This document shows positions 1-15,199 of a stretch of 26,029 nucleotides of DNA, piece after piece. The notes beneath the pieces were generated by a model, which was not told the DNA's origin, ran no database searches, and was given only the letters and a program-made list of their open reading frames with translations. Source of the stretch: a virus (taxonomy: Duplodnaviria; Caudoviricetes). Location of the stretch: positions 1 to 26,029 of the IMG/VR virus record IMGVR_UViG_3300044858_000598. One strand, written 5' to 3'. The stretch's first letter is position 1. Each line of letters begins with the position of its first letter. Made by a program: the position numbers and the translations under genes.

Positions 1-110
1 AGTTCGCTATCTGGAACATGCTCAAGCGTAGGCACATTGTAAAACGCTTTAACCTCCGCAATCTCTGCGGTTAGGTCTGCGAATAGGTCTTCATTTGCGT
101 ATGTATTCAT
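1..110 (-). CDS. Partial hypothetical protein running off the left edge (MNTYANEDLFADLTAEIAEVKAFYNVPTLEHVPDSE...)
   Basis: Manually translated open frame from ATG at 110, preceded on the minus strand by GAAAGGACAGCAAG (RBS) and a consensus-like promoter. Confidence 0.75.
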   Translation of the reverse strand, partial: MNTYANEDLFADLTAEIAEVKAFYNVPTLEHVPDSE

Positions 111-158
111 CTTGCTGTCCTTTCAGAGTTGTTGAGACCACCTCAACCAACACCGAGA

Positions 159-187
159 ATTATCCCATACCTCGAGCCGAATGTCAA
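159..187 (-). promoter_or_regulatory. Sigma70/SigA-type promoter for the leftward gene
   Basis: Minus strand TTGACA (187-182), 17-nt spacer ending in TGG (extended -10), GATAAT (164-159). Confidence 0.75.
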
Positions 188-234
188 ACACTGAGCGTAA
201 ATAGACGGAGTGTCGGCTCACTGTGCGTGTATGT

Positions 235-359
235 CATGTCATGACATGTGTGTGCCTGTGTATGTGCGAAACCCCTCATATGCGGGCGCATGTGCGCCCA
301 CACCGCATGAATTGACGGATTGGCTAGTGGCTGCTCGCATGTGCGAGCTCGTGATCACG
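235..359. repeat. Cluster of palindromes and inverted repeats in an alternating purine-pyrimidine tract
   Basis: CATGTCATGACATG 235-248; GGGCGCA-TG-TGCGCCC 284-299; GCTCGCA-TG-TGCGAGC 333-348; CGTGATCACG 350-359. Confidence 0.85.
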
Positions 360-375
360 CCTGTCTTTCTTTGAT

Positions 376-394
376 AGCAAATCAAAGATTTGCT
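376..394 (+). promoter_or_regulatory. Early-region hairpin element, copy 1
   Basis: AGCAAATC-AAA-GATTTGCT, a perfect 8-bp inverted repeat about 50 nt upstream of the first rightward gene; regulatory role is inferred. Confidence 0.75.
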
Positions 395-445
395 TTGATA
401 GATGTCGCCGAAACGGAAACTCCGAAAGGCAGAAAGTAGGACAGC

Positions 446-691
446 ATGAGAACAGTTGAAAGTAAGACACTAGTCGGCGTCGTTAAGAACGGCGTTGTTC
501 ATGTAGCCAAGGCAGATGACAAGCGTGTCTTCGCCAAGGTGCGTATCACTACCAACACCGCCAAATCTTCAAAGAAGATTGAGGCAATTCTAGCATCATT
601 CAAGGCTTATCCAAACTTCACGCTTGTAGCAGGCGAGATAGCCAAGGTTGAGCCAAAGGCTTACCTAACCATGAAGGGAAGTGTCGCCTAA
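446..691 (+). CDS. Hypothetical early protein, 81 aa
   Basis: ORF with AGGA RBS; TAATG overlap with next gene. Confidence 0.8.
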   Translation: MRTVESKTLVGVVKNGVVHVAKADDKRVFAKVRITTNTAKSSKKIEAILASFKAYPNFTLVAGEIAKVEPKAYLTMKGSVA

Positions 692-906
692 TGACTACCA
701 TCACACACCCATTCACACTTCAACTACAAAGTGTAGTTGACGAAAGCAATCCAACAATCAAGAAACTCCTTGCCCTACCTGAACAAGACAGAGTCTTGTT
801 CTTAACTCAAATGGCGCAAGACCTAATTCTACCAGAGGTAGAAAAAACACTAACCAAACTGAATGAAAACTCAGGTGGCTGGGCAAGATTGGAGGTAGTC
901 GCATGA
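691..906 (+). CDS. Hypothetical early protein, 71 aa
   Basis: ORF coupled by TAATG upstream and ATGA downstream. Confidence 0.8.
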   Translation: MTTITHPFTLQLQSVVDESNPTIKKLLALPEQDRVLFLTQMAQDLILPEVEKTLTKLNENSGGWARLEVVA

Positions 907-1031
907 CCACATTACCTTTGCTTTACACAGACCTGATTGCTGTAGCAATCGCTCTATTCGGTAGCGGTTTCGCTATCGGTTTAATCGTCGCTCGCAGGGC
1001 AGTTCGTGAGTGGCTCGCTCGTCAAAGATAG
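903..1031 (+). CDS. Small single-pass membrane protein, 42 aa (MTTLPLLYTDLIAVAIALFGSGFAIGLIVARRAVREWLARQR)
   Basis: Manually translated; GGAGGT RBS, ATGA overlap, hydrophobic stretch followed by basic tail. Confidence 0.75.
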   Translation: MTTLPLLYTDLIAVAIALFGSGFAIGLIVARRAVREWLARQR

Positions 1032-1048
1032 CAGATCAAAGATCTGCT
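1030..1048 (+). promoter_or_regulatory. Early-region hairpin element, copy 2
   Basis: AGCAGATC-AAA-GATCTGCT, overlapping the TAG stop of the preceding ORF. Confidence 0.75.
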
Positions 1049-1052
1049 TATT

Positions 1053-1084
1053 AGGGGGGGTAGCAAATCGCTATCCCCTCTTTT
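1053..1084 (+). terminator. Terminator-like RNA hairpin (or 5' stabilising hairpin)
   Basis: AGGGGGGGTAGC-AAATC-GCTATCCCCTCT with two G-U pairs, followed by TTT. Confidence 0.55.
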
Positions 1085-1106
1085 GTCGCTTCAGAAAGGA
1101 GCAACT

Positions 1107-1367
1107 ATGAGAACGCAACAAACCGCAGTAATGAATTGCCGTCGGTGTAATGAGCCGACCTACTTAACCGCTTCACCTGAGCAGTTCGCTGAGTATGCGC
1201 TTCCTCGTGGCGAGCGCAGACTCGTGCAAGAAATCTTCCCTGACTTCTCTATCGGAGATAGAGAGTTGCTTATCTCAGGCACATGTAATACCTGCTGGCA
1301 AGAGTTGTTCGGCAGTGATGAAGGTGATGACACCGACATCTACACAGAAAAGGAGGAGCAAGCATGA
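1107..1367 (+). CDS. Small zinc-binding protein (CxxC...CxxC) with acidic tail
   Basis: GAAAGGAG RBS before ATG 1107; CRRC and CNTC motifs. Confidence 0.8.
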   Translation: MRTQQTAVMNCRRCNEPTYLTASPEQFAEYALPRGERRLVQEIFPDFSIGDRELLISGTCNTCWQELFGSDEGDDTDIYTEKEEQA

Positions 1368-1594
1368 TAGTAGCAAACGCAATCAAACTCCTAAAGGAGT
1401 TAGACCCTAACGCTGAAATCGCCTGCCAATGGTATGACCAAGAGGACATGACCTATGAAGGCGACACTCTAACTACCGAAGAATGGGAGTTAGCCAACGC
1501 TATCTTCGATAGATATGAACTATCAGATATGCGATACGCAATCGAGCAAGCAATATCAGAAGCCAAGCAACGACTAGCAAAGGAGCAACAATAA
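1364..1594 (+). CDS. Hypothetical early protein, 76 aa
   Basis: GGAGGAG RBS, ATGA overlap. Confidence 0.8.
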   Translation: MIVANAIKLLKELDPNAEIACQWYDQEDMTYEGDTLTTEEWELANAIFDRYELSDMRYAIEQAISEAKQRLAKEQQ

Positions 1595-1962
1595 TGGGAG
1601 CAAGAATAAACTTCGTCTTTATACAAGACGAGGAAACAGCAACAGGCGAACCAGCATCACCAAAGGTGGTGTTGTATTCACACTGGGGCGAGACTACATG
1701 GGAGGTTGACTTGGCTTGTGCTTTGTCAGTAGCAGAGCCACGCTGGGACGACCCTTCCTATGGAACTCGTATCGTCATCTCCAATTTAATTGGAGAACAA
1801 TGGAAGTCAGAAACTGGCTTCGGTATCTACGCAACCACAGACACAGCGTCTACATGGGATACATGCGTAGAGATTGACTTCGTCAAGAAAACTGTTGACG
1901 GAGTTGCCTTTGATTTATTCGTCAAGTATGGACTAGCGAAAGGGGAATACCAAGATGCCTAA
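1594..1962 (+). CDS. Hypothetical phage protein (MGAR...LYSHWG type)
   Basis: AAGGAG RBS, TAATG overlap; N-terminal MGxR and YxHW motif seen in phage early proteins. Confidence 0.8.
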   Translation: MGARINFVFIQDEETATGEPASPKVVLYSHWGETTWEVDLACALSVAEPRWDDPSYGTRIVISNLIGEQWKSETGFGIYATTDTASTWDTCVEIDFVKKTVDGVAFDLFVKYGLAKGEYQDA

Positions 1963-2590
1963 CTGGTGCTACAACTCTCTACTAATTGAGGCAGAGCCTC
2001 AAGTAATTGCCAAGATTAAGGCGCAGTTATCTGCGCCTTATGAATCCAAACATCAAGACCTTGCGTCTGATACATGGACAACTGAAACTGTTCAAAAAGA
2101 TTTATCTTTTTGGAACATCATTCGCCCACCTGCTGACAAGATGGACGAATACCATTCAGCCAAAGGCTGGAATGATGGGAAATCATACGGCGATACCGAA
2201 TACAACTGGTATAACTGGAACACCAGCAATTGGGGTGTCAAGTGGGACGCCAGCGAGCCTGAGCTCGTGGAAGAGGACGAGACTTCCCTTAACTATAGGT
2301 TCAACACCCCTTGGGGTGTTGCTGAAGGGGCATTGACTGCTCTTTCAGAGCAATACCCTGATGTCAGTTTCAACCTTGACTTCGAGGAAGAGACAGGCTG
2401 GGGCGGTGAACTTGAGTTCATCAATGGTCAGTGTATAACAATCAACGAGTTCGCCCAGAAATGCTACGCATGTGGCAAGCAATGGGAACATGGTGATGAA
2501 TACTGGAATGAGTATGACGAAGATGAACACCAACATAAATGCGAAGCCAATGGCTACGCCATGGAAGATAAGGAGAAAACCAATGTGTGA
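1955..2590 (+). CDS. DUF1281/YubB-like ferredoxin-fold protein
   Basis: MPNWCYN start, WYNWNTSNWGVKWDA and FNTPW motifs characteristic of the family. Confidence 0.8.
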   Translation: MPNWCYNSLLIEAEPQVIAKIKAQLSAPYESKHQDLASDTWTTETVQKDLSFWNIIRPPADKMDEYHSAKGWNDGKSYGDTEYNWYNWNTSNWGVKWDASEPELVEEDETSLNYRFNTPWGVAEGALTALSEQYPDVSFNLDFEEETGWGGELEFINGQCITINEFAQKCYACGKQWEHGDEYWNEYDEDEHQHKCEANGYAMEDKEKTNV

Positions 2591-2783
2591 TATGACCAAC
2601 GCACAACTGCTCTATCTATTCGAGAGCGAGTTCGCTGAGGCAGAGATGCCTAGTGAGGATGAATTATCCTCAGCAATAGATGAAATACAAGGACGAACAG
2701 ACAATTTCTATAATGAAATTGTTGATGAAGTAATCACTCGCCTAAGAGAAGGCGAGTTCAAGGAAGAGGAGGAGCAAGCATGA
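2583..2783 (+). CDS. Acidic hypothetical protein, 66 aa
   Basis: AAGGAG RBS before ATG 2583 (the track start at 2472 is too long). Confidence 0.7.
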   Translation: MCDMTNAQLLYLFESEFAEAEMPSEDELSSAIDEIQGRTDNFYNEIVDEVITRLREGEFKEEEEQA

Positions 2784-2956
2784 TGGGCTACAAGTATGAG
2801 GATATACAGGAGTTCGGCACTGCCTTAAAGAGGGCAGAGTTTTATCTCCCGCCTAATGACACGGAGATAAAGGATGGGCTACTGAAAGTATGGGATTTCT
2901 TCGAAGGTTTACTAGCGGAGGGATACATAGATGAATGGAGAAAAACCAATGTATAA
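2780..2956 (+). CDS. Hypothetical protein, 58 aa (MMGYKYEDIQEFG...EGLLAEGYIDEWRKTNV)
   Basis: Manually translated; GGAGGAG RBS, ATGA overlap, fills the gap between neighbours. Confidence 0.75.
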   Translation: MMGYKYEDIQEFGTALKRAEFYLPPNDTEIKDGLLKVWDFFEGLLAEGYIDEWRKTNV

Positions 2957-3173
2957 ATCACGACTAACAAAGCCAAAGGTGGGTGAGGTTAAGCAATGGA
3001 TCCCGCATGATAACGGCAATGAGTATGTCCAAGTATTCACTGCTGATATCGACGACTTCTTCTTCAAGGTAGGTGGTTCTAATGTTAGAACCAAATACTT
3101 TTATGGAGAGAATGCATGGGCTGATAGCAGGCGATACGCAGATGATTTAGCGTGGGCTATACGCAATAAATAG
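2949..3173 (+). CDS. Hypothetical protein, 74 aa
   Basis: GGAG RBS before ATG 2949. Confidence 0.75.
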   Translation: MYKSRLTKPKVGEVKQWIPHDNGNEYVQVFTADIDDFFFKVGGSNVRTKYFYGENAWADSRRYADDLAWAIRNK

Positions 3174-3190
3174 CACATCAAAGATGTGCT
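3172..3190 (+). promoter_or_regulatory. Early-region hairpin element, copy 3
   Basis: AGCACATC-AAA-GATGTGCT overlapping a TAG stop, followed by TTAAATATAGGG and a CA-rich leader with GAAAGGAG. Confidence 0.75.
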
Positions 3191-3230
3191 TTAAATATAG
3201 GGCAACAACTAACCAACAGAAAGGAGCAAG

Positions 3231-3953
3231 ATGCTGTCGTTACTTAGAAGTCATGACCGCAAAGTCACCAACCTAGTCTCGCCAACTGGCAAGGCTTCAG
3301 CAATTCGCAACACCTTTGGCTTGCCAGCAGGCAAAGCCTTCTCATGTCCTGATGCCACAAGTATCTGCGAGAAGGTGTGTTATGCAGGCAAGCTCGAGCG
3401 TGTATACAAGGGAGTGAGAGAAGTTCTCATTCACAACTGGCAACTATTGAAGGACGCCGACATCAACCAAATGGTTGAACTACTTGACGACATGGTCAGT
3501 GACTTCGTCAAGGACTGTGAGAAACGGAATGCCCCGAAGTTATTCCGCATCCACTGGGACGGCGACTTCTTCAACCAAACATATGAGTATGCATGGCAGA
3601 AAGTAATCATGATGTACCCAGACGTACAGTTCTGGTGCTACACACGAGTGCGATCTGCTGCCTATTCCCTATCGGGATTAGATAATCTGTCGCTGTATTA
3701 CAGCGCAGACCAAGAGAACAAACACATTGCCGAACAAGTTCGGCGTGAGACAGACACTAAACTAGCGTGGCTGTCAGATACATTCGCAAATGCGGAGAAG
3801 GAAATGCTTCGCATAACTGGCAAGGTCGGTGCTAAATGTCCAGCATTGACCAAGCAAATCCCACTCATCTCCACCAGTGGGTCAGCCTGCGTTAGCTGCG
3901 GGCTATGCATTGTCGGCAAAGCCGACATCCGATTCAGTGCAACCAAGAGATAG
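3231..3953 (+). CDS. GP88-family (mycobacteriophage gene 88-like) Cys-rich protein
   Basis: FGLPAG...SCPDATSICEKVCYA, FRIHWDGDFF, FWCYTR, C-terminal CP...CVSCGLC. Confidence 0.8.
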   Translation: MLSLLRSHDRKVTNLVSPTGKASAIRNTFGLPAGKAFSCPDATSICEKVCYAGKLERVYKGVREVLIHNWQLLKDADINQMVELLDDMVSDFVKDCEKRNAPKLFRIHWDGDFFNQTYEYAWQKVIMMYPDVQFWCYTRVRSAAYSLSGLDNLSLYYSADQENKHIAEQVRRETDTKLAWLSDTFANAEKEMLRITGKVGAKCPALTKQIPLISTSGSACVSCGLCIVGKADIRFSATKR

Positions 3954-3961
3954 GAGCAAAC

Positions 3962-4267
3962 ATGGAAGCGTCATTCATGATCACACAGGTAGAGACAACT
4001 CTATCTAACTACACCAATCACTATCGTAGATTGGGAATGCAAGACCTTGCAATATGGCAATCGCTTGAGGATATTTACAAGCGACCTGAACTTCACGATC
4101 TAACCTTAGCGTCCACTCGTGAGGAAGCCTTTGACCAAATGGTCAAAGACAATTGGTTCGTAGATATGGGCAGTCACTACTACGGATTAGACTACGAAAC
4201 CATAGATGAACTTGTCCTTGAATATCTCAAGGACAACCAACTAGTAAAGGAGTTAGTCAATGACTGA
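3962..4267 (+). CDS. Hypothetical protein, 101 aa
   Basis: AGGAG RBS before ATG 3962. Confidence 0.75.
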   Translation: MEASFMITQVETTLSNYTNHYRRLGMQDLAIWQSLEDIYKRPELHDLTLASTREEAFDQMVKDNWFVDMGSHYYGLDYETIDELVLEYLKDNQLVKELVND

Positions 4268-4535
4268 CATAACACAATACAATTGGATAACAGTTGATGG
4301 TAAGGAATGGGGCGTTCACCTATGGGGAACGCTAGAAGAATACGAGGACGGCACACGCCAAGTCGTAGACATAGACGCACGTATCCTCCCACCTACAGGT
4401 GGAGAGTTCACATACGACGCACAAAACTGGAGCAAGTTTCCAGAAGAGGTGTGCAATCTGGCTGATGCCCTGCTTGATGACAAAGACACAAGCGATAGCA
4501 TGCTTGAGACATGGGGCGCACCTGTCTTTCATTGA
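4260..4535 (+). CDS. Acidic hypothetical protein, 91 aa
   Basis: AAGGAG RBS, overlaps previous stop. Confidence 0.75.
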   Translation: MTDITQYNWITVDGKEWGVHLWGTLEEYEDGTRQVVDIDARILPPTGGEFTYDAQNWSKFPEEVCNLADALLDDKDTSDSMLETWGAPVFH

Positions 4536-4536
4536 T

Positions 4537-4555
4537 AACAGATCAAAGATCTGTT
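4537..4555 (+). promoter_or_regulatory. Early-region hairpin element, copy 4
   Basis: AACAGATC-AAA-GATCTGTT just after the stop; 4521-4565 matches 360-404 at 38 of 45 positions. Confidence 0.75.
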
Positions 4556-4594
4556 TAGATATATGGCAGCAACACCAACCGAAAGGAGAACCAA

Positions 4595-4771
4595 ATGGAA
4601 AGCAGTATCCGAACCGAGGATATGACTGTCGGTGAACTCATGGTCTTGGCTAACCAAGCCGAGGACATGGCACACGGACTGATGCAAAAGGCAATGGATC
4701 TTCGGGTTCAAGCAAGGAATAAGCAGGTTGATATAATCAAAAAACAACTAGCGGAAGGAGCAAGTAAATGA
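4595..4771 (+). CDS. Helical hypothetical protein, 58 aa (MESSIRTEDMTVGELMVLANQAED...)
   Basis: Manually translated; GAAAGGAG RBS; ATGA overlap with next gene. Confidence 0.75.
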   Translation: MESSIRTEDMTVGELMVLANQAEDMAHGLMQKAMDLRVQARNKQVDIIKKQLAEGASK

Positions 4772-4989
4772 AAGTAAAAGTACATGACCCAAGTGGTGAT
4801 GTAATTGCTGAGGTGTATGACTACGCAGCAGGTGCATTACTCATGAGCTTGTATGGTGATGGCTCAACGATCAGACTAAAGAATGTAATTCTTTGGTTAG
4901 AAGGTGCAGATGGTGAAGGTGCAAACAGTTACGACAACACATCATTCGTCATCGAAGAACGACTAAGAAAGGTAGGTGCAATCAAATGA
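4768..4989 (+). CDS. Hypothetical protein, 73 aa
   Basis: AAGGAG RBS; ATGA coupling on both sides. Confidence 0.8.
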   Translation: MKVKVHDPSGDVIAEVYDYAAGALLMSLYGDGSTIRLKNVILWLEGADGEGANSYDNTSFVIEERLRKVGAIK

Positions 4990-5255
4990 TGTTCATCCCT
5001 CACATCGGTGACCGCATCAATAATGGTGCGGTCATAGTAGATCTCAAGAGATCTTGGGACACAGACCCAGATACATACCTAGCACTCTGTCTATGGACAG
5101 AGGACAGACAGCAGGTCGAACCAATCAAACGGATCGCTGACCTGTATGTAACATGGAGAATATATCCAAGCGAAGATGGCTTGGTGCATGCCAGAAATGG
5201 TCACTATCATGACACACTCTCAGAAGCAGTTGTTGATTTCAACAGCCGTACATGA
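4986..5255 (+). CDS. Hypothetical protein, 89 aa
   Basis: AGGT RBS; ATGA coupling. Confidence 0.75.
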   Translation: MMFIPHIGDRINNGAVIVDLKRSWDTDPDTYLALCLWTEDRQQVEPIKRIADLYVTWRIYPSEDGLVHARNGHYHDTLSEAVVDFNSRT

Positions 5256-5261
5256 GATACT
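5233..5261 (+). promoter_or_regulatory. Putative SigA-type promoter for the DUF932 operon
   Basis: TTGATT, 17-nt spacer ending TGA (extended -10), GATACT; same layout as the promoter at 159-187. Confidence 0.55.
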
Positions 5262-5292
5262 AATCCCACAACCAAACGAACAGGAGAAACAC

Positions 5293-6273
5293 ATGACACA
5301 ACAAACAATCCGCTCTCGCCGTAATGCTTATAGCATTATTGGTGAGGCAGTCACCGCTACATCTGCACGAGATGCAGCACAACAGGCTGGTCTCGACTGG
5401 CATGTACAACTGGCTGACGTACAAGCGTTAGCCGTATCGAATGATGGTGTTAATACCCTCGAAGTACCATCAACATTCGCAACAGTTCGTACCAATAAGG
5501 ACGCAACACAGTCAGTGCTTGGCACTGTCGGTGGTAGATACAAGGTGTTTCAGAATGATGAGATGTTCTCAGGTCTAGATGCACTGGTTGATTCAGGTGA
5601 TGCAAGATATGCATTCGCTGGTGAGGTTAAAGGTGGAGCGCAGGTATACATGGTGCTCGAGCTACCTAACGAAGTTAAGATAGCCAACGATCCTCATGCT
5701 TGCTACCTTGTAGCAAGAACATCACATGATGGTTCAACTGCACTGCAGATATCACCATCAATCCAACGCTTGCGTTGCACCAATCAGATAGCAGGTATCT
5801 TTGCTAAGACTGGTACATATACACTCAAGCACACAACCAATGCTGAGTTCAAGATCGAAGATATCAAGCGCATCATCCCAGTTACCTATGAAGGTATTAA
5901 GTTCTATGAACTTATCGGTAACAAACTTATCAACGAGAAGATCTCAGATGCAGAAGTGGATGCCATCTTTAATAAGATGTGGTCTATACCAAGCATCATC
6001 GAGAACTCACCTTACTCACTGTTAAGTGCAGGACAGAAGCGTCAGTACAACTCAGCAGTAGTGGCACGTCAGACTGCTAAAGCAATCTATCGTGGTGAGA
6101 CTGGTACTCAAGAAGAACTAAAAGGAAATAGATTCGGTGTGTTCCAATCTATCGTGGAGTATGCAGATCACTACAGTCACAAGGCTGATTCAGTTAGAGC
6201 CGAGCGCATCATCACAGGTTCGGCTGATCGTATCAAGAGCAAAGCTCTTGACCTACTAACGAAAGGAATCTAA
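5293..6273 (+). CDS. DUF932 / TIGR03299-type phage-plasmid protein
   Basis: AGLDWHV, SHDGS, RLRCTNQ and KHT motifs; AGGAG RBS before ATG 5293. Confidence 0.85.
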   Translation: MTQQTIRSRRNAYSIIGEAVTATSARDAAQQAGLDWHVQLADVQALAVSNDGVNTLEVPSTFATVRTNKDATQSVLGTVGGRYKVFQNDEMFSGLDALVDSGDARYAFAGEVKGGAQVYMVLELPNEVKIANDPHACYLVARTSHDGSTALQISPSIQRLRCTNQIAGIFAKTGTYTLKHTTNAEFKIEDIKRIIPVTYEGIKFYELIGNKLINEKISDAEVDAIFNKMWSIPSIIENSPYSLLSAGQKRQYNSAVVARQTAKAIYRGETGTQEELKGNRFGVFQSIVEYADHYSHKADSVRAERIITGSADRIKSKALDLLTKGI

Positions 6274-6506
6274 TGGAGAATCCATTACAGAAGTACGTTG
6301 ATGAGTTGGATAATCCAACTCCCTTCGTACCACCAAAGATATCTATTCGTATGGCTAACTATATAATCAAGGCTCTTGATTACCTGCATATTTATGCAGG
6401 AGAAAAAGATGAGCCCGAACTTATAGAGTCAGACATACACAAGGAGACAGAGGAAGCAATGGTTGACATTGTAGTTATGTCTCCAGAGGAGATACCGAAT
6501 GGGTAA
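6273..6506 (+). CDS. Hypothetical protein, 77 aa
   Basis: GAAAGGA RBS, TAATG overlap. Confidence 0.75.
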   Translation: MENPLQKYVDELDNPTPFVPPKISIRMANYIIKALDYLHIYAGEKDEPELIESDIHKETEEAMVDIVVMSPEEIPNG

Positions 6507-6780
6507 GTTAATCAATAAAGAAATCCTGCAGGCTAGACCACCTAGTCTGCAGGTTAAACAACTCGCTGGGTGGTCGTGGTACTGTGGGTATCACGACACC
6601 ATGGGAAGTGGTGACACTAGGCATGAAGTATTATGGATGGCTGGTGCTCACATGGATTACTTCTCAGAAGTAACTGATGACTGTGACATCTATGTAAGGG
6701 AACACAAGGTCGAGAAGGAGAGTGATGGGCAAGCCACGTCCAACAGAAATAAAACTAGTAGCAAAGCTACTAGATCCTGA
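6499..6780 (+). CDS. Hypothetical protein, possibly metal-binding (CxxH...H...C)
   Basis: GAGGAG RBS; WYCGYH motif. Confidence 0.7.
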   Translation: MGKLINKEILQARPPSLQVKQLAGWSWYCGYHDTMGSGDTRHEVLWMAGAHMDYFSEVTDDCDIYVREHKVEKESDGQATSNRNKTSSKATRS

Positions 6781-7045
6781 CGCCGAGAACTCCGAAGATG
6801 CTGCGGAACTAGCGGTTGAAATCATCGAGGCTCTAGATAAATCTAGAACCAAGAGAGAATCGTTTATTGTCGTAGCAAAATTGGCAGACTGGGTTCCAGT
6901 GCAAGCATGGGGTGAGTTCAGTACCCGCTTACAAGCGGAGAAGTTCTTCCCCAATCTTTCATCACCAGACACAGGTGGTAAGGGATCAATCGTTCGTCTG
7001 GAAAATCCAGATGACCTACTCAAAAGAATAGGAGTAACCAAGTAA
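6725..7045 (+). CDS. Hypothetical protein, about 106 aa
   Basis: AAGGAG RBS; TAATG coupling to next gene. Confidence 0.75.
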   Translation: MGKPRPTEIKLVAKLLDPDAENSEDAAELAVEIIEALDKSRTKRESFIVVAKLADWVPVQAWGEFSTRLQAEKFFPNLSSPDTGGKGSIVRLENPDDLLKRIGVTK

Positions 7046-7212
7046 TGTTCTACAACGGATTTACTTTGTTGATGCAGATCCTTGCGGGTCTAACTGCATA
7101 CTGGGTTGGTAACTATTATGGTTACCAACGAGGTAAGACAGAGATGTATCAGACATTAAAGAATCTAGACGCAAAGAGTAGAGAGTTCTTCTCTACCGTA
7201 TCCAAGAAATAA
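7045..7212 (+). CDS. Small membrane-anchored protein, 55 aa (MFYNGFTLLMQILAGLTAYWVGNYYGYQRGK...)
   Basis: Manually translated; AGGAG RBS, TAATG overlap, N-terminal hydrophobic helix. Confidence 0.75.
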   Translation: MFYNGFTLLMQILAGLTAYWVGNYYGYQRGKTEMYQTLKNLDAKSREFFSTVSKK

Positions 7213-7215
7213 ACT

Positions 7216-7248
7216 AAAGGCGGGGGCGTTATGCCTCCGCCTTTTTTT
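7216..7248 (+). terminator. Intrinsic terminator between convergent operons, possibly bidirectional
   Basis: AAA-GGCGGGGGC-GTTAT-GCCTCCGCC-TTTTTTT. Confidence 0.8.
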
Positions 7249-7951
7249 CTTTCCCTCGTGCAGCCATGTTGGTTACCCAATATAATTTATAGAAGTCTTC
7301 ATCAAATGCAAATCGTTTCATGTGTTGAACTGTTGCTCCAGTGTGAGCATAAAGTGGGATGCCAGCTTCCTTCATTAACATGAAGAACTGAATGTCTTCC
7401 GATATAAACTGATCGTCTTCACCAGTAGAACTCTCCATAAACAATGGTCTTTTACCATGAACCTTACGCATCTTGTCAGCCACTGATCTGTGCATGAGAA
7501 AGAATCCATAGCCAGCGTAATCAACCTTGACCATAGCGTTTGGTTCAAGTGGATGAGCGTATGACATTACATATTTATCTGTGGGATGGGCTATAAACAG
7601 CGCAGGGTATGGCTCCATAAGTGCCTGCTCATTCTGTTTAGATATGAAGTATGTGCCAGTAACTGCTGGTCTTTCTTTAGCATCAGCCATAGCCCAGAGT
7701 TTATGAGCAGCATCGTTCGTAAGAACGATGTCTGAATCTATCCATAAGATCCATTCGATATCTGTTTGTTGATGCCATGTATCAAATGCTGTTTGTCTTT
7801 GTCTGCCTATCTGATTACCTTGTACACGTTGGGCTGATGCAATGGGCAAACCACTGGTTAGAATTGTATACACCAATCCTTGCGTAAACTTTCCATCAGT
7901 GGTGCCATTGTCGCACCAAGTAATCATGATTCTATCTTTAGCTTTTGACAT
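7229..7951 (-). CDS. GT-A fold (family 2-like) glycosyltransferase
   Basis: IGRQRQ...WILWIDSDI (DxD motif), GYGFFLMHR, SEDIQF, ATVQH motifs. Confidence 0.8.
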   Translation of the reverse strand: MSKAKDRIMITWCDNGTTDGKFTQGLVYTILTSGLPIASAQRVQGNQIGRQRQTAFDTWHQQTDIEWILWIDSDIVLTNDAAHKLWAMADAKERPAVTGTYFISKQNEQALMEPYPALFIAHPTDKYVMSYAHPLEPNAMVKVDYAGYGFFLMHRSVADKMRKVHGKRPLFMESSTGEDDQFISEDIQFFMLMKEAGIPLYAHTGATVQHMKRFAFDEDFYKLYWVTNMAARGKEKKAEA

Positions 7952-8111
7952 GGTCACCACCCCATCCTCCACCTTTAAAGTGAATGGCTGGTGGTGTAAA
8001 TACTTTAGTCAGTGTGACATCACATCTCTCACACTTAGGGAACGGATCATCGGTAATGATTAGTTCAACGACTGATTCACAGTTCATACATTTGAAGTCA
8101 AAGGTTGGCAC
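7938..8111 (-). CDS. FmdB-family zinc-ribbon protein, 57 aa (MPTFDFKCMNC...CERC...PAIHFKGGGWG)
   Basis: Manually translated from GTG 8111; MPxxxxxCxxC...CxxC...FKGxGW signature. Confidence 0.85.
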   Translation of the reverse strand: MPTFDFKCMNCESVVELIITDDPFPKCERCDVTLTKVFTPPAIHFKGGGWGGDHVKS

Positions 8112-8272
8112 TATTTCTTTTTCTTTCTTGCTACCACTGCATTATCAATTAAGTTTGGGTATGGTCTACCTGCTGCCTTAGCACGAGCACGTGCTTCAGC
8201 TTTCTGTTCAGGTGTTAGTGGTGTTGATGTCTTCTTTGGATTAGTTGTTTTCCAAAATGGTTTCTTCTTCAT
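8111..8272 (-). CDS. Small basic protein, 53 aa (...ARARAKAAGRPYPNLIDN...)
   Basis: ATG 8272 in TAATG overlap with sigma factor stop; Lys/Arg rich. Confidence 0.75.
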   Translation of the reverse strand: MKKKPFWKTTNPKKTSTPLTPEQKAEARARAKAAGRPYPNLIDNAVVARKKKK

Positions 8273-8910
8273 TAGTACGGTGTCATCCCTCCGAGTTTGT
8301 CTGCTATATCTTTTATTCCTTTGGCAACCAATTGTTCCACACGCTGAGGTGAGATATCCCAAGCCTCGGCTATGTCTGCAAGTGGCATGTCGTTAACAAA
8401 CCTAGATGTCAGGATGCCTTGCATTCTGGGATCTAGTTTCTTCATTGCTCTGGATACATCAGCAATCATCGCTGCCAGATTGTTGCCTTCATTGGCTGGC
8501 TTCTTAGCCTTGACTCCATGTATATCTGGATCAAAGACTTGGTTAGCCAAGTATGATTCATTAGTACCAGCAACTTTAATTAAGTTCTCAATTAAATCTA
8601 AGCGATAGAAGTACTCATCACCTAGTTCATAACCAAGTGTGCGAGCCTTCTCTTTGCGAGCGTATCGCTCGCCAGCCCTACGCATGAACGTAGTGAATGC
8701 TTTATATCCCTGTTTAATTTCAATAGGATCTTCACGAATTAAATACTCAGCAACTTTATCTCTGCGTTTCCAAGCATACTCATTCATTGCCTGTCTAATA
8801 TCTTCAAGCTCTACAAATCTATGGTAACGCTTGGATAAACCCCAAGCCAAAGATATATTAATCTCATTAACTTCATCCCATATTGGATGATCACGGTTTA
8901 ACTCAGTCAT
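8272..8910 (-). CDS. Phage-encoded sigma-70-like (ECF-size) RNA polymerase sigma factor
   Basis: Region-2-like N terminus (ELEDIRQ...W) and region 4 HTH: LDPRMQGILTSRFVNDMPLADIAEAWDISPQRVEQLVAKGI. Confidence 0.75.
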   Translation of the reverse strand: MTELNRDHPIWDEVNEINISLAWGLSKRYHRFVELEDIRQAMNEYAWKRRDKVAEYLIREDPIEIKQGYKAFTTFMRRAGERYARKEKARTLGYELGDEYFYRLDLIENLIKVAGTNESYLANQVFDPDIHGVKAKKPANEGNNLAAMIADVSRAMKKLDPRMQGILTSRFVNDMPLADIAEAWDISPQRVEQLVAKGIKDIADKLGGMTPY

Positions 8911-9506: not shown

Positions 9507-10151
9507 CTAGTTAATTGCATTGACTAAGTCAGTCAATGCTTGCGCTCCTTGGTTACAAATTATACTATTAACATCACTGTCAGGTGGTAGCGACACACGC
9601 ACCGCTTGAGGTATTGCATCTTGTAATCTTCTAGCTAATTCCTGCCCAGGATTTGATCCATCTTCTTTAGCATCATTGTCAGTACAGATTACTACCGTAC
9701 CTATCCCATCAAAGCAACGAGCAAAGTGAGGCTTCCAAGCGTTAACTCCTGCAACAGCGACAGCAGGATGACCAATAAGTGTTGCACTGATTGCATCTAT
9801 TTCTCCTTCTACTATTAGAACTTTATTAATGGCGTTGAGTATTGCATCAACATTATATAGGTGGTGCTTCTGACCAGTAGGTATCATGTACTTAGGATCT
9901 CCGCCGTCGATACGACGGAACTTAAACCCAACCACACCAGCCTCAGTTATATATGGAATAGATAAATGGTTCTTGATTCTATCCTCATGTCCAGGTGCTA
10001 CCTCTGATACATACCCAAGCATGAACCGACTAGCACCATCAAGAATCCCACGCTCTTTTAAGTAAGCCTCTGCTGGTGAACCAGCAAGAGCATCGTGGTA
10101 TTGCTTGGCTGCCCTAGTCCAGAGTTCAATTAGCTTTGGATTAGTTCTCAT
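9507..10151 (-). CDS. DNA primase, catalytic/Toprim part
   Basis: LSIPY...GFKFRRI...PKY, IVEGEIDAIS, CTDNDA, DVN motifs; lacks a Zn finger. Confidence 0.9.
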   Translation of the reverse strand: MRTNPKLIELWTRAAKQYHDALAGSPAEAYLKERGILDGASRFMLGYVSEVAPGHEDRIKNHLSIPYITEAGVVGFKFRRIDGGDPKYMIPTGQKHHLYNVDAILNAINKVLIVEGEIDAISATLIGHPAVAVAGVNAWKPHFARCFDGIGTVVICTDNDAKEDGSNPGQELARRLQDAIPQAVRVSLPPDSDVNSIICNQGAQALTDLVNAIN

Positions 10152-10347
10152 CCCACTCCTGCTTCGCCCATTGGGTGATGTTAATATAAAATATTAGGAA
10201 ATCAAAACGTATTACTCTGGCATCTACATACTCAATCAAGTCAAGAGAATCTAAATCTTCATATACTGAAGTCATAGTATGGTAATTGATACCAAGACCC
10301 CAACAATAAAGACGGTTGAACCCTGCATATAAACTAAGTCTTCCCAC
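10141..10347 (-). CDS. Hypothetical protein, 68 aa
   Basis: GTG start overlapping upstream TAG, AGGAG RBS; fills the gap exactly. Confidence 0.65.
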   Translation of the reverse strand: MGRLSLYAGFNRLYCWGLGINYHTMTSVYEDLDSLDLIEYVDARVIRFDFLIFYINITQWAKQEWDEN

Positions 10348-10880
10348 TATCTCTTCTCCTGCCTGTGCATTATGAATGGAGGTGCAGTATACACATCATT
10401 CTTCGCTGCTATCTGCAACGCCTTACGCCAAGTTGCGCCTTGTTGTACCGCACCAACTGCGTAAGAAGATCCTGATCCTATCCCATATATACCATCATCA
10501 CGTAAGAATACCGAGAAGGTATCATCTACTTCATAGATGATCCCATTAACTGCAATTAAAAATAAAAACTCATAGTCATCTGACTTATCATCTGCTACCC
10601 AGCCATTCTCCTTTAAAGCTTCACGCATACTTGGAACTATATCTGTAATCATAAAATGATATTGATCCTTGATTGAAGGTGGTAGTGCTGGTGGTTTCCA
10701 GATGTGTTGGATCGTATCGCATGGCATAGTCGTGCCAGCTCCTGCAATTAAATACTTACCACGCTTGGTAATCTTTGTAATAATAGGATGAGAGTATGGT
10801 CTGCCCTTCTCTGTAGTTGTACGAGAGTCGGCTGCGATAACGCAGTGATCATTCTTTTGTATACCAATAATGGTTGTCAT
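10347..10880 (-). CDS. Ntn-hydrolase, proteasome beta-subunit/HslV-like protease
   Basis: M-TTIIG...AADSRTT...KI...AGAG...GIGSGSSYA; Thr1, Asp17 and Lys35 after Met removal. Confidence 0.85.
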   Translation of the reverse strand: MTTIIGIQKNDHCVIAADSRTTTEKGRPYSHPIITKITKRGKYLIAGAGTTMPCDTIQHIWKPPALPPSIKDQYHFMITDIVPSMREALKENGWVADDKSDDYEFLFLIAVNGIIYEVDDTFSVFLRDDGIYGIGSGSSYAVGAVQQGATWRKALQIAAKNDVYTAPPFIMHRQEKR

Positions 10881-11209
10881 TACTTCCGCAATCTTGGCGG
10901 TGTCCACCGACCATTGGTTCGTCTTCTGCCACGCATAGGCGTGGCAAACTCTTTACTCTTTTCTGATCCTATGTTTTTCTCTGCCCACTTACGAGCCTCT
11001 GAGTATGTTAGCTTCTCACGAGCCATGACTATCTGTATACCAGAGCCACTACCATGACAGGCATAACATACCCAGACACCCTTATCTGAATTAACTGAAG
11101 CAGACTTACGTGAATCATCATGCACAGGACAGAGAATAGATTTCTCACCTTGTGGCAAGGTTAAACCATAATGATTAAAGACTGCTTCAAGAAATTCAGG
11201 TTGATTCAT
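10880..11209 (-). CDS. DNA primase zinc-binding domain (CHC2 type), stand-alone
   Basis: CPVHDDSRKSASVN...WVCYACHGSG. Confidence 0.9.
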   Translation of the reverse strand: MNQPEFLEAVFNHYGLTLPQGEKSILCPVHDDSRKSASVNSDKGVWVCYACHGSGSGIQIVMAREKLTYSEARKWAEKNIGSEKSKEFATPMRGRRRTNGRWTPPRLRK

Positions 11210-14020: not shown

Positions 14021-14698
14021 TCATCCTTTCTTTCCCTTGGTTGTTGGTATTTTCAGTGGGAAATCTGTACCGCCCATCGCTGGGCATTGAGATTGGAATG
14101 AACACATCCGACATGAATCACCGACGGATGGTGGAAACCATCCGTTCAATACCGAATGGTTCATTGCACCAAATACATATTCAAAATAATCTATTGTAAG
14201 GTGCGACAGATCTATAAGATCGTCAAGCGTACCTTGTCTTGTCATAAAGAATGCGCCCCACTTAGGGCGAACACCTAAAGCTTTTTCAATACCAGAGGCA
14301 TACAAGCCTGCTTGGATCATACCGAATGGTGTCCTAGAACCTGTCTTGTAATCAACGATTACCAAGTCTTCCCCTACTTGGTAGATCGCATCAACAATAA
14401 AGCGAACTGGTGTTCCCCCGAAGTGAACATCTGCTGCCCATTCAATTCCAGGACGACCATCAGGCATCGTAGCAATTTGCCAACCAGAAGACTCGTACCA
14501 TTTCTGGTACGCCTCTACCTGCTTGAGTCCATCGCTTTGCCAGAACGATAGATCTTCTCCGTCTGGGCGTAAGGTGGTCTTACGTCCAGCCGTCTTCCAC
14601 TCTGTCGAGGGAATACCAGATTTCTCTTCGGTCTCCTTGACGGCATCATTAAATACCTCAAGCCACTTCTGTGTCAAATCAATAGAGTTCATCATCAC
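14021..14698 (-). CDS. RecB/Cas4-like PD-(D/E)XK exonuclease, C-terminal catalytic part
   Basis: IE...IVDAI...IVDYKTG...QAGLYA...CRMCSFQSQC. Confidence 0.9.
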   Translation of the reverse strand: MMMNSIDLTQKWLEVFNDAVKETEEKSGIPSTEWKTAGRKTTLRPDGEDLSFWQSDGLKQVEAYQKWYESSGWQIATMPDGRPGIEWAADVHFGGTPVRFIVDAIYQVGEDLVIVDYKTGSRTPFGMIQAGLYASGIEKALGVRPKWGAFFMTRQGTLDDLIDLSHLTIDYFEYVFGAMNHSVLNGWFPPSVGDSCRMCSFQSQCPAMGGTDFPLKIPTTKGKKG

Positions 14699-14903
14699 CC
14701 TCTTTGTAATCAGGGTTATCCACAGGGGTAGGTGCGGTCATAGGCGAACCGCAGTTCGCACAGAAAGAATCAAGGAACCACATAACCAATTCATAGTCAT
14801 TAAAGATTGCACGAATAACCTGTATGTTTGAGCCACAGTTGATACACTCATTGCTTGGTATACCACGTTGATCAATTGTCAAGTTGCTTCTTATAGAACT
14901 CAT
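14679..14903 (-). CDS. Zinc-ribbon protein lying between the exonuclease halves
   Basis: CINCGS...CANCGS...TAPTPVD; start is ATG 14903 or TTG 14882. Confidence 0.75.
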   Translation of the reverse strand: MSSIRSNLTIDQRGIPSNECINCGSNIQVIRAIFNDYELVMWFLDSFCANCGSPMTAPTPVDNPDYKEGDDELY

Positions 14904-15063
14904 GGTTGAGCCACTCCAGCATGGAGTGGACAGCTGAACCAGCAGCAAGATATACCGCAGGTTTCTCTGGAACCATAGCTACTTTGCTAAGATAGTATTT
15001 CTGTGGGCAGGATTGCCAAGTAGATAACTGGCTATAGGATCTATGCGGAGGAAGTTCATTCAT
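14872..15063 (-). CDS. RecB/Cas4-like exonuclease, N-terminal part, 63 aa
   Basis: SYSQLSTWQSCPQKYYL...AGSAVHSMLE is the typical N-terminal motif of this nuclease family. Confidence 0.85.
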   Translation of the reverse strand: MNELPPHRSYSQLSTWQSCPQKYYLSKVAMVPEKPAVYLAAGSAVHSMLEWLNHEFYKKQLDN

Positions 15064-15075
15064 ACCAGAAGAGTA
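15064..15075 (-). promoter_or_regulatory. Putative -10 box for a leaderless transcript of the replication operon
   Basis: TACTCT (TANNNT) 6 nt upstream of ATG 15063; no RBS visible. Confidence 0.5.
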
Positions 15076-15199
15076 ATACAACCAAGTGACATTCCTTGGT
15101 AACGACACACTTGTAGTTCTTACCAATAATCTGATAAAGTTAAAGGGTGGTGGGTGGGAAAGGCTCGCTCAAGGCGAGCCGTGAAAAGAATAGGAAACT

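What the first reader, a model, noticed from the sequence alone, without database searches (positions are those of the whole stretch)
360..4565. Four-copy hairpin element with fully compensated stem changes punctuates the early region
Seen: AGCAAATC-AAA-GATTTGCT (376-394), AGCAGATC-AAA-GATCTGCT (1030-1048), AGCACATC-AAA-GATGTGCT (3172-3190) and AACAGATC-AAA-GATCTGTT (4537-4555). Every stem substitution is compensated (A-T, G-C, C-G at one pair; G-C, A-T at another) while the ATC-AAA-GAT core is invariant. Copies 1 and 4 match at 38 of 45 nt (360-404 vs 4521-4565), and 4 of the 7 differences are the compensating pairs. All copies face the same way. Three sit at a stop codon, and all four lie 40-60 nt upstream of the next RBS-led start, followed by an AT-rich stretch and G (TTGATAGATG, TATTAGGG, TTAAATATAGGG, TAGATATATGG). 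In copies 1 and 4, TTGATA precedes the 17-nt palindrome core, but no TANNNT -10 box follows. Inference: pairing itself is under selection, which a plain double-stranded operator would not need. Candidates are an extruded-hairpin or ssDNA promoter (conceptually like N4 virion RNAP promoters or plasmid Frpo), a promoter class for the phage sigma factor, an RNA processing site, or a cassette recombination site. This is the best candidate for an undescribed system here.
Basis: partly seen in the sequence, partly recalled or inferred. Interest (0 to 1): 0.85.

Follow-up and report, generated by a model that had tools for sequence, protein, structure and literature searches.

The report
Strictly paired hairpins before phage genes
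Freshwater phages related to Streptomyces podoviruses carry four or five short palindromes just ahead of their early gene blocks whose arms change sequence and length yet stay perfectly paired, which likely means they loop out as DNA hairpins and likely serve as start signals for the host's RNA polymerase.

Summary
The four copies are real and belong to a family in ~41-kb freshwater actinophage-like phages: 4-5 per complete genome, in the early module. A scan blind to the inner stem gave 151 perfect copies (37 cores, 22 arm sequences) and no mismatched copy with a downstream RBS; other palindromes stay perfect in only 138 of 2345 changed orthologues. The ATC-AAA-GAT core is not invariant: cores are 15-18 nt, triloops are R-N-A (128 of 136) or the reverse complement, and G.T pairs are absent (0 of 255). 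This argues against an operator, a -35/-10 spacer and, less firmly, an RNA stem, and for an extruded DNA hairpin built like N4 early promoters. No phage RNA polymerase was found. Looping the core out joins the flanks into NANNNT in 143 of 151 copies, mostly GATAWT. Best reading: hairpin start signal for host polymerase (0.45); main rival RNA processing (0.25), as cultured cluster BF relatives have RNA-type stems at like sites. No transcript start is shown. The scan's index held only a different palindromic promoter in another phage.

The parts
376..394 (+). Hairpin copy 1, ahead of the first early gene (446-691); flanks TTTGAT-A and T-TTGATAG; predicted start near A402 (inferred)
1030..1048 (+). 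Hairpin copy 2, overlapping the stop (TAG 1029-1031) of a 42-aa ORF; predicted start near G1056 (inferred)
1056..1078 (+). Leader hairpin after copy 2 with a G.U pair (RNA type); its first base is the predicted +1
   Evidence: sequence; leader hairpins as a class
3172..3190 (+). Hairpin copy 3, at the stop of ORF 2931-3173, ahead of the GP88-family gene (3231-3953)
4537..4555 (+). Hairpin copy 4, after TGA 4533-4535, ahead of the block 4595-7212 that includes the DUF932 gene; predicted start near A4563 (inferred)
446..7212 (+). Early module of small co-oriented genes divided into four blocks by the hairpins; ends at a terminator-like stem 7216-7244
159..187 (-). Canonical sigma-A-type promoter TTGACA-17-GATAAT facing away from the early module; internal reference for the host -10

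Best explanation
The element is a 15-18-nt perfect palindrome with conserved outer arms (RCA...TGY) and AT-rich flanks at the head of each early gene block, and it likely works as an extruded DNA hairpin (cruciform) that marks a transcription start for the host RNA polymerase. Shown: strict pairing under changing sequence and length, a narrow loop set, position, confinement to the early module.
For: Blind outer-arm search: 129 of 267 unique plus-strand contexts pair at all 4 inner positions, only 4 at 3 of 4; minus-strand control 2 of 143. Flank-only profile, free spacer: 151 perfect of 159 hits; of the other 8, one is a perfect copy mis-spaced by the script and 7 lack an RBS. Collection-wide blind patterns: 41 of 41 RBS-linked contexts perfect. 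Changed orthologues stay perfect in 88 of 88 true elements versus 138 of 2345 other palindromes. DNA rather than RNA: G.T in 0 of 255 core pairs versus G.U in 104 of 737 predicted leader pairs; triloops R-N-A 128, reverse complement 8, other 0 of 136 (65) versus 109 'other' of 228 background palindromes; GAA/TTC and AAA/TTT swap at matching sites. C-closed GNA loops are the DNA mini-hairpin class and RNA versions are weaker (PMC13037366, passages); N4 promoters have conserved plus free-but-paired stem bases and extrude under supercoiling (PMC4496689 section 2.1). Start signal: 32-60 nt before the next start in all but 25 of up to 185 copies; no strong plus-strand sigma-A promoter in window 1-8300; loop-out gives NANNNT in 143 of 151, shuffles 88.5 +/- 5.6, max 107, and the AT tract ends 8-11 nt past the stem in 129 of 151.
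Against: No transcript start is mapped. The commonest loop, AAA (73 of 151), is not in the GNA class that alone passed the 64-triloop screen. The purine loop is mostly on the coding strand, unlike N4. No -35 or extended -10 appears after loop-out, and how sigma would accept a hairpin inside the -10 is untested; the NANNNT count leans on a profile trained on those flanks, on alternating TA tracts and on related genomes. The early mRNA is rich in sense-strand stems with G.T above A.C (11 versus 3 in the window), and cluster BF relatives have long RNA-type stems with GCA...TGC arms and UCCG loops at like positions. One RNA-library contig runs across copy 3, which read-through or DNA could also give.
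Confidence: 0.45

Rival explanations
1. RNA hairpin that punctuates one long early transcript: it shields the 3' end of the upstream message and directs a host nuclease to the AU tract beyond it, a cut-down version of the long stems in cluster BF phages and of T7 early processing sites (T7 comparison recalled).
For: Sits on stop codons; BF phages have 14-20-bp imperfect stems with UCCG/UUCG loops between early genes, several with GCA...UGC arms; early region shows sense-strand G.T excess; stem length can vary freely in RNA.
Against: No lower stem: own flanks pair no better than swapped or shuffled ones; 0 of 255 G.T; loops confined to R-N-A, its reverse complement, TTTA and CAAG, with no UNCG or GNRA; no strong upstream plus-strand promoter for a single transcript.
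Confidence: 0.25
2. DNA hairpin bound by a structure-specific phage or host protein for another purpose: an off-switch for early transcription, or a genome-entry or replication signal.
For: All DNA-level evidence above; an N4 hairpin placed in a promoter spacer abolishes activity when extruded; mini-hairpins mark primase sites; either strand may carry the purine loop (78).
Against: Does not explain the fixed distance to start codons, the oriented flanks, or the lack of another promoter for each block.
Confidence: 0.13
3. Double-stranded operator for a dimeric phage regulator, kept symmetric by template-switch repair rather than by selection on pairing.
For: Conserved RCA/TGY half-sites; cluster O phages have a 7-3-7 repeat with AAA/TTT spacer read as a dimer site (PMC4351075 section 8); loop flips and a 35-versus-0.8 excess of palindromes suggest palindrome-perfecting mutation is active.
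Against: Half-site spacing varies from 9 to 12 nt; other palindromes in the same genomes decay in 2207 of 2345 cases; cluster O arms are invariant, these are not.
Confidence: 0.1
4. PeSL-like cassette boundary or terminator: sites of recombination that shuffle early genes.
For: Identical cores, including the TTC variant, recur at several positions of one genome, so copies likely exchange sequence; early gene content varies.
Against: Gains and losses are mostly inside blocks; no integrase in 5 of 5 complete genomes, control rang; no U-tract or sigma-70 promoter as in PeSLs (PMC2839356 passages).
Confidence: 0.07

Closest known systems
Coliphage N4 virion-RNA-polymerase early promoters P1-P3
   Same: A few copies in the early module; short stem with conserved and free-but-paired bases; 3-nt loop, mostly C:G closed; short AT stretch, then purine (PMC4496689).
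   Different: No virion polymerase found; purine loop mostly on the coding strand and able to flip; AAA commonest; stem 6-8 bp and loop 2-4 nt.
DNA mini-hairpins (GNA triloop closed by C:G)
   Same: C-GAA-G 24 and C-GTA-G 15 of 151 copies; some cores hold GCGAAGC itself (PMC13037366).
   Different: C-AAA-G, T-TT-A and A-GAA-T loops fall outside that class; compact AAA and TTTA DNA loops are recalled from older NMR work, not checked here.
Cluster O mycobacteriophage 17-bp repeat (7-3-7)
   Same: Same geometry, AAA/TTT spacer, actinophage (PMC4351075).
   Different: There arms are invariant, over 30 copies genome-wide, not tied to starts; here arms covary, spacing varies, 4-5 oriented copies.
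PeSL cassettes of T4-type phages
   Same: Repeated intergenic stem-loops in a variable early region that can recombine (PMC2839356).
   Different: PeSLs join a consensus sigma-70 promoter to a terminator over about 100 bp; neither is present here.
Intergenic early stems of Streptomyces cluster BF podoviruses (FlowerPower, Immanuel3)
   Same: Closest cultured kin (capsid 42-45% identity, like gene order); stems between early genes, some with GCA...TGC arms.
   Different: Longer, imperfect, with G.U pairs and UCCG/UUCG loops; the 7-3-7 element was not seen in the 2 genomes read.

Membership tests
N4-type virion RNAP hairpin promoter | Inverted repeat with conserved and free-but-paired stem bases and 3-nt loop | tested here: met
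N4-type virion RNAP hairpin promoter | C:G-closed 5'-G..A-3' loop on the template strand | tested here: not met
   purine loop on coding strand in 128 of 136 triloops; template GAA in 7, template AAA in 1 (65)
N4-type virion RNAP hairpin promoter | Phage-encoded virion RNA polymerase | tested here: not met
   none by Pfam/PHROGs; PF00562 0 of 5, control rang; PF00940 0 of 5, control silent; the 1644-aa protein lacks conserved polymerase motifs and a model of residues 301-1400 has no PDB match; a very divergent enzyme is not excluded
N4-type virion RNAP hairpin promoter | Supercoil-dependent extrusion and mapped start | not testable with these tools
   needs probing and 5'-end mapping
Sigma-A/sigma-70 promoter with palindromic spacer | TANNNT 16-18 nt after a -35 hexamer | tested here: not met
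   TANNNT downstream in 7 of 126 (52); core length 15-18 (65); scan finds none at the copies
Dimeric-repressor operator (cluster O type) | Constant arms and fixed spacer | tested here: not met
   22 arm sequences, spacer 9-12 nt (62, 65)
RNase III-type processing stem | Long duplex with lower stem; G.U tolerated (features recalled) | tested here: not met
PeSL cassette | Consensus early promoter plus terminator stem-loop | tested here: not met
Known structured RNA family (Rfam) | Match at gathering score | tested here: not met
   4 weak hits in window 1-8500, none at a copy, all below cut-off

The most novel reading that the evidence does not exclude
A split -10 promoter: the -10 hexamer is interrupted by a palindrome and exists only when the palindrome extrudes, giving host RNA polymerase a supercoiling-gated early promoter that is silent on relaxed DNA and needs no phage polymerase. 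Stem length is free because it is looped out.
Probability: 0.17. Interest if true: 0.92.

Novelty: new variant of a known kind. Interest (0 to 1): 0.68.

Why it matters
Regulatory DNA hairpins with proven function are few, N4 being the textbook case and tied to its own polymerase. This family gives a natural mutagenesis set (37 cores, none mismatched) in a common freshwater phage group that seems to lack such a polymerase. If it starts transcription, it would show that a host polymerase can use short extruded hairpins, a compact supercoiling-sensitive promoter that can be tested in vitro without culturing phage or host.

Tried and rejected
Invariant core: rejected. Extended RNA stem: none. Canonical promoter around the core: none. 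Virion polymerase in the 1644-aa protein: no motifs, atlas neighbours carry LPD38/LPD3, no PDB sequence or fold hit, viral fold hits are orthologues including one of Streptomyces phage Manuel; the wider fold comparison could not be run, and residues 1-300 and 1401-1644 were not modelled. RNA data: three RNA runs hold only 6-7% of words, as contigs of relatives; two contigs stop in the leader roughly 23 and 27 nt past copy 1 (matched by eye to L138 and L137) and one crosses copy 3; contigs cannot show starts, so none of this counts as evidence, and a laying on a closer relative was not obtained. First early protein: no family. Rfam: nothing. GenBank phages: only the GP88 gene matches at DNA level. 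Prokaryote genomes: 52 pattern hits, one true copy. Dropped before counts: 3 coding AGCATGGT-type palindromes (17 to 39) and 8 pairs of a coding DUF932 palindrome mis-tagged as element. One coding palindrome with a CTA loop fits the loose pattern outside the early module in G001 and G002. Nine literature searches showed no description of this element; the library lacks most subscription papers, and supplements were not read.
Full report
Observation.

What the DNA is. The window is the whole record held (26,029 nt). It encodes WhiB, a sigma-like protein, primase, helicase, resolvases, tail proteins and a capsid; the plus-strand module 446-7212 holds small genes including GP88 and DUF932. Complete relatives are 41-42 kb. 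The closest cultured phages by capsid are Streptomyces cluster BF phages (42-45% identity; like gene order), podoviruses with 253-bp terminal repeats (PMC9753666, passages). An actinobacterial host is inferred from WhiB, this kinship and one copy in a Nanopelagicus bin.

The family. I fetched 156 loci through two early proteins; the more distant GP88 relatives mostly lack the element. A search fixing only the outer arms gave 410 unique contexts: on the plus strand 129 of 267 pair at all four inner positions and 4 at three; on the minus strand 2 of 143. Three coding hits were dropped. A profile of flanks and outer arms with a free spacer gave 159 hits, 151 perfect, in 37 cores of 15-18 nt with 22 arm sequences; of the 8 others one is a perfect copy mis-spaced by the script and 7 have no RBS. 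Two collection-wide patterns blind to the inner part gave 33 and 81 unique contexts; all 41 with an RBS are perfect, and none of the 71 imperfect ones has an RBS (scan 75 stopped at 52 of 64 parts). Five complete genomes hold 4, 4, 4, 4 and 5 copies, all in the early module. These genomes are related, so counts overstate independence, but 22 arm types need at least 21 symmetric changes.

Is symmetry neutral? The early module is full of perfect palindromes (35 against 0.8) and loops flip between GAA and TTC at matching sites of close relatives, so palindrome-perfecting mutation is probably active (mechanism recalled; one search found no paper). Yet other palindromes stay perfect in only 138 of 2345 changed orthologues, the element in 88 of 88 (after removing 8 mis-tagged coding pairs). 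Selection on pairing is needed.

DNA or RNA? For DNA: no G.T in 255 core pairs against 104 G.U in 737 predicted leader pairs; triloops are R-N-A or the reverse complement and never anything else, while 109 of 228 background palindromes have other loops; with one stem, TTC (20) outnumbers GAA (6) among 71 matches, so either strand may carry the purine loop, as a cruciform allows; there is no lower stem. C-closed GNA loops form unusually stable DNA hairpins and RNA versions are much weaker (PMC13037366, passages). For RNA: AAA, the commonest loop, is outside that class; early mRNA shows G.T above A.C stems; cluster BF phages carry long RNA-type stems with UCCG loops, some with GCA...TGC arms, in like places. 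I put a DNA-level structure near 0.6.

What it does. Copies lie 32-60 nt before the next start in all but 25 of up to 185 cases. The window has a canonical promoter, TTGACA-17-GATAAT, but it faces away; only two 9-of-12 sites face the early genes. The copies are not ordinary promoters, and variable core length rules out a fixed spacer or operator. Removing the core joins the flanks into GATATT (59) or GATAAT (41); NANNNT arises in 143 of 151 over two registers against 88.5 +/- 5.6 in 2000 shuffles, and the AT tract ends 8-11 nt past the stem in 129 of 151, where +1 would fall. In copy 2 that base opens the leader hairpin 1056-1078. No -35 appears. This is suggestive only: the flanks helped define the set and TA alternation could give part of the signal.

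Who reads it. No RNA polymerase or integrase was found (the PF00940 control was silent). The one very large protein (1644 aa) has no conserved polymerase motif in 40 homologues, and a model of residues 301-1400 (pLDDT 67, pTM 0.52) matches nothing in the PDB and mainly orthologues among viral models. Host polymerase is the default.

Known systems. It works most like N4 early promoters (PMC4496689, passages and part 1 of section 2.1) but fails membership on polymerase and loop strand. It shares geometry with the cluster O repeat (PMC4351075, passages and section 8) and position with PeSLs (PMC2839356, passages) but not their defining features. The COBRA preprint on whiB actinophages has no mention of promoters, hairpins or palindromes in its main text. 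Nine searches showed no description; other listed papers were seen as listings only. The scan's index had no look-alike and one different palindromic promoter in another actinophage, not tested here.

Verdict. A real, apparently undescribed structural element with unusually clean covariation. Hairpin start signal for host polymerase 0.45; RNA processing 0.25; other DNA-hairpin role 0.13; operator 0.10; cassette or terminator 0.07. Interest 0.68; 0.92 if the split -10 holds (probability 0.17). No transcript end supports any of these yet.

Noticed in passing
window 360-7210: 35 perfect palindromes (stem 7 or more, loop 3-5) against about 0.8 expected, many in coding sequence and often with C-R-N-A-G loops; the rest of the window is about 5-7-fold enriched; same trend in G003 and FlowerPower.
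   Followed up: partly
window 159-187, minus strand: Canonical TTGACA-17-GATAAT promoter for a small leftward gene starting near 107, towards the terminase; a like site in 11 of 18 loci read.
   Followed up: partly
window about 225-265 and relatives: CATGA/CACATGA repeat tract between the divergent promoter and copy 1 (59); possible genome end or origin feature.
   Followed up: no
L550: A true copy plus the start of the first early gene on a 2-kb contig binned in a Ca. Nanopelagicus genome; weak host hint, as the GP88 gene was not found in that bin.
   Followed up: partly
L262:1163, L242:6726 and kin: Copy 2 in these clades is followed by a conserved CACTGGG motif and often a longer leader; possible small RNA or short ORF.
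   Followed up: no
L297 and L298, intergenic 38000-44800, minus strand: Cluster BF Streptomyces phages have long imperfect stems with UCCG/UUCG loops before early genes, candidate RNase III sites.
   Followed up: partly
window 369-399: Both TTTGAT flanks of copy 1 can pair with the core's ATCAAAG, giving two alternative 7-bp hairpins.
   Followed up: no
window 14021-15126 and 9507-11209, minus strand: Exonuclease and primase each appear as two ORFs; the primase is also annotated as two genes in Immanuel3 (47).
   Followed up: no
L291:1505-6439: 1644-aa mostly helical protein of unknown function, conserved in 102 relatives and matching a cluster BF protein by fold; likely an ejected virion protein.
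   Followed up: partly
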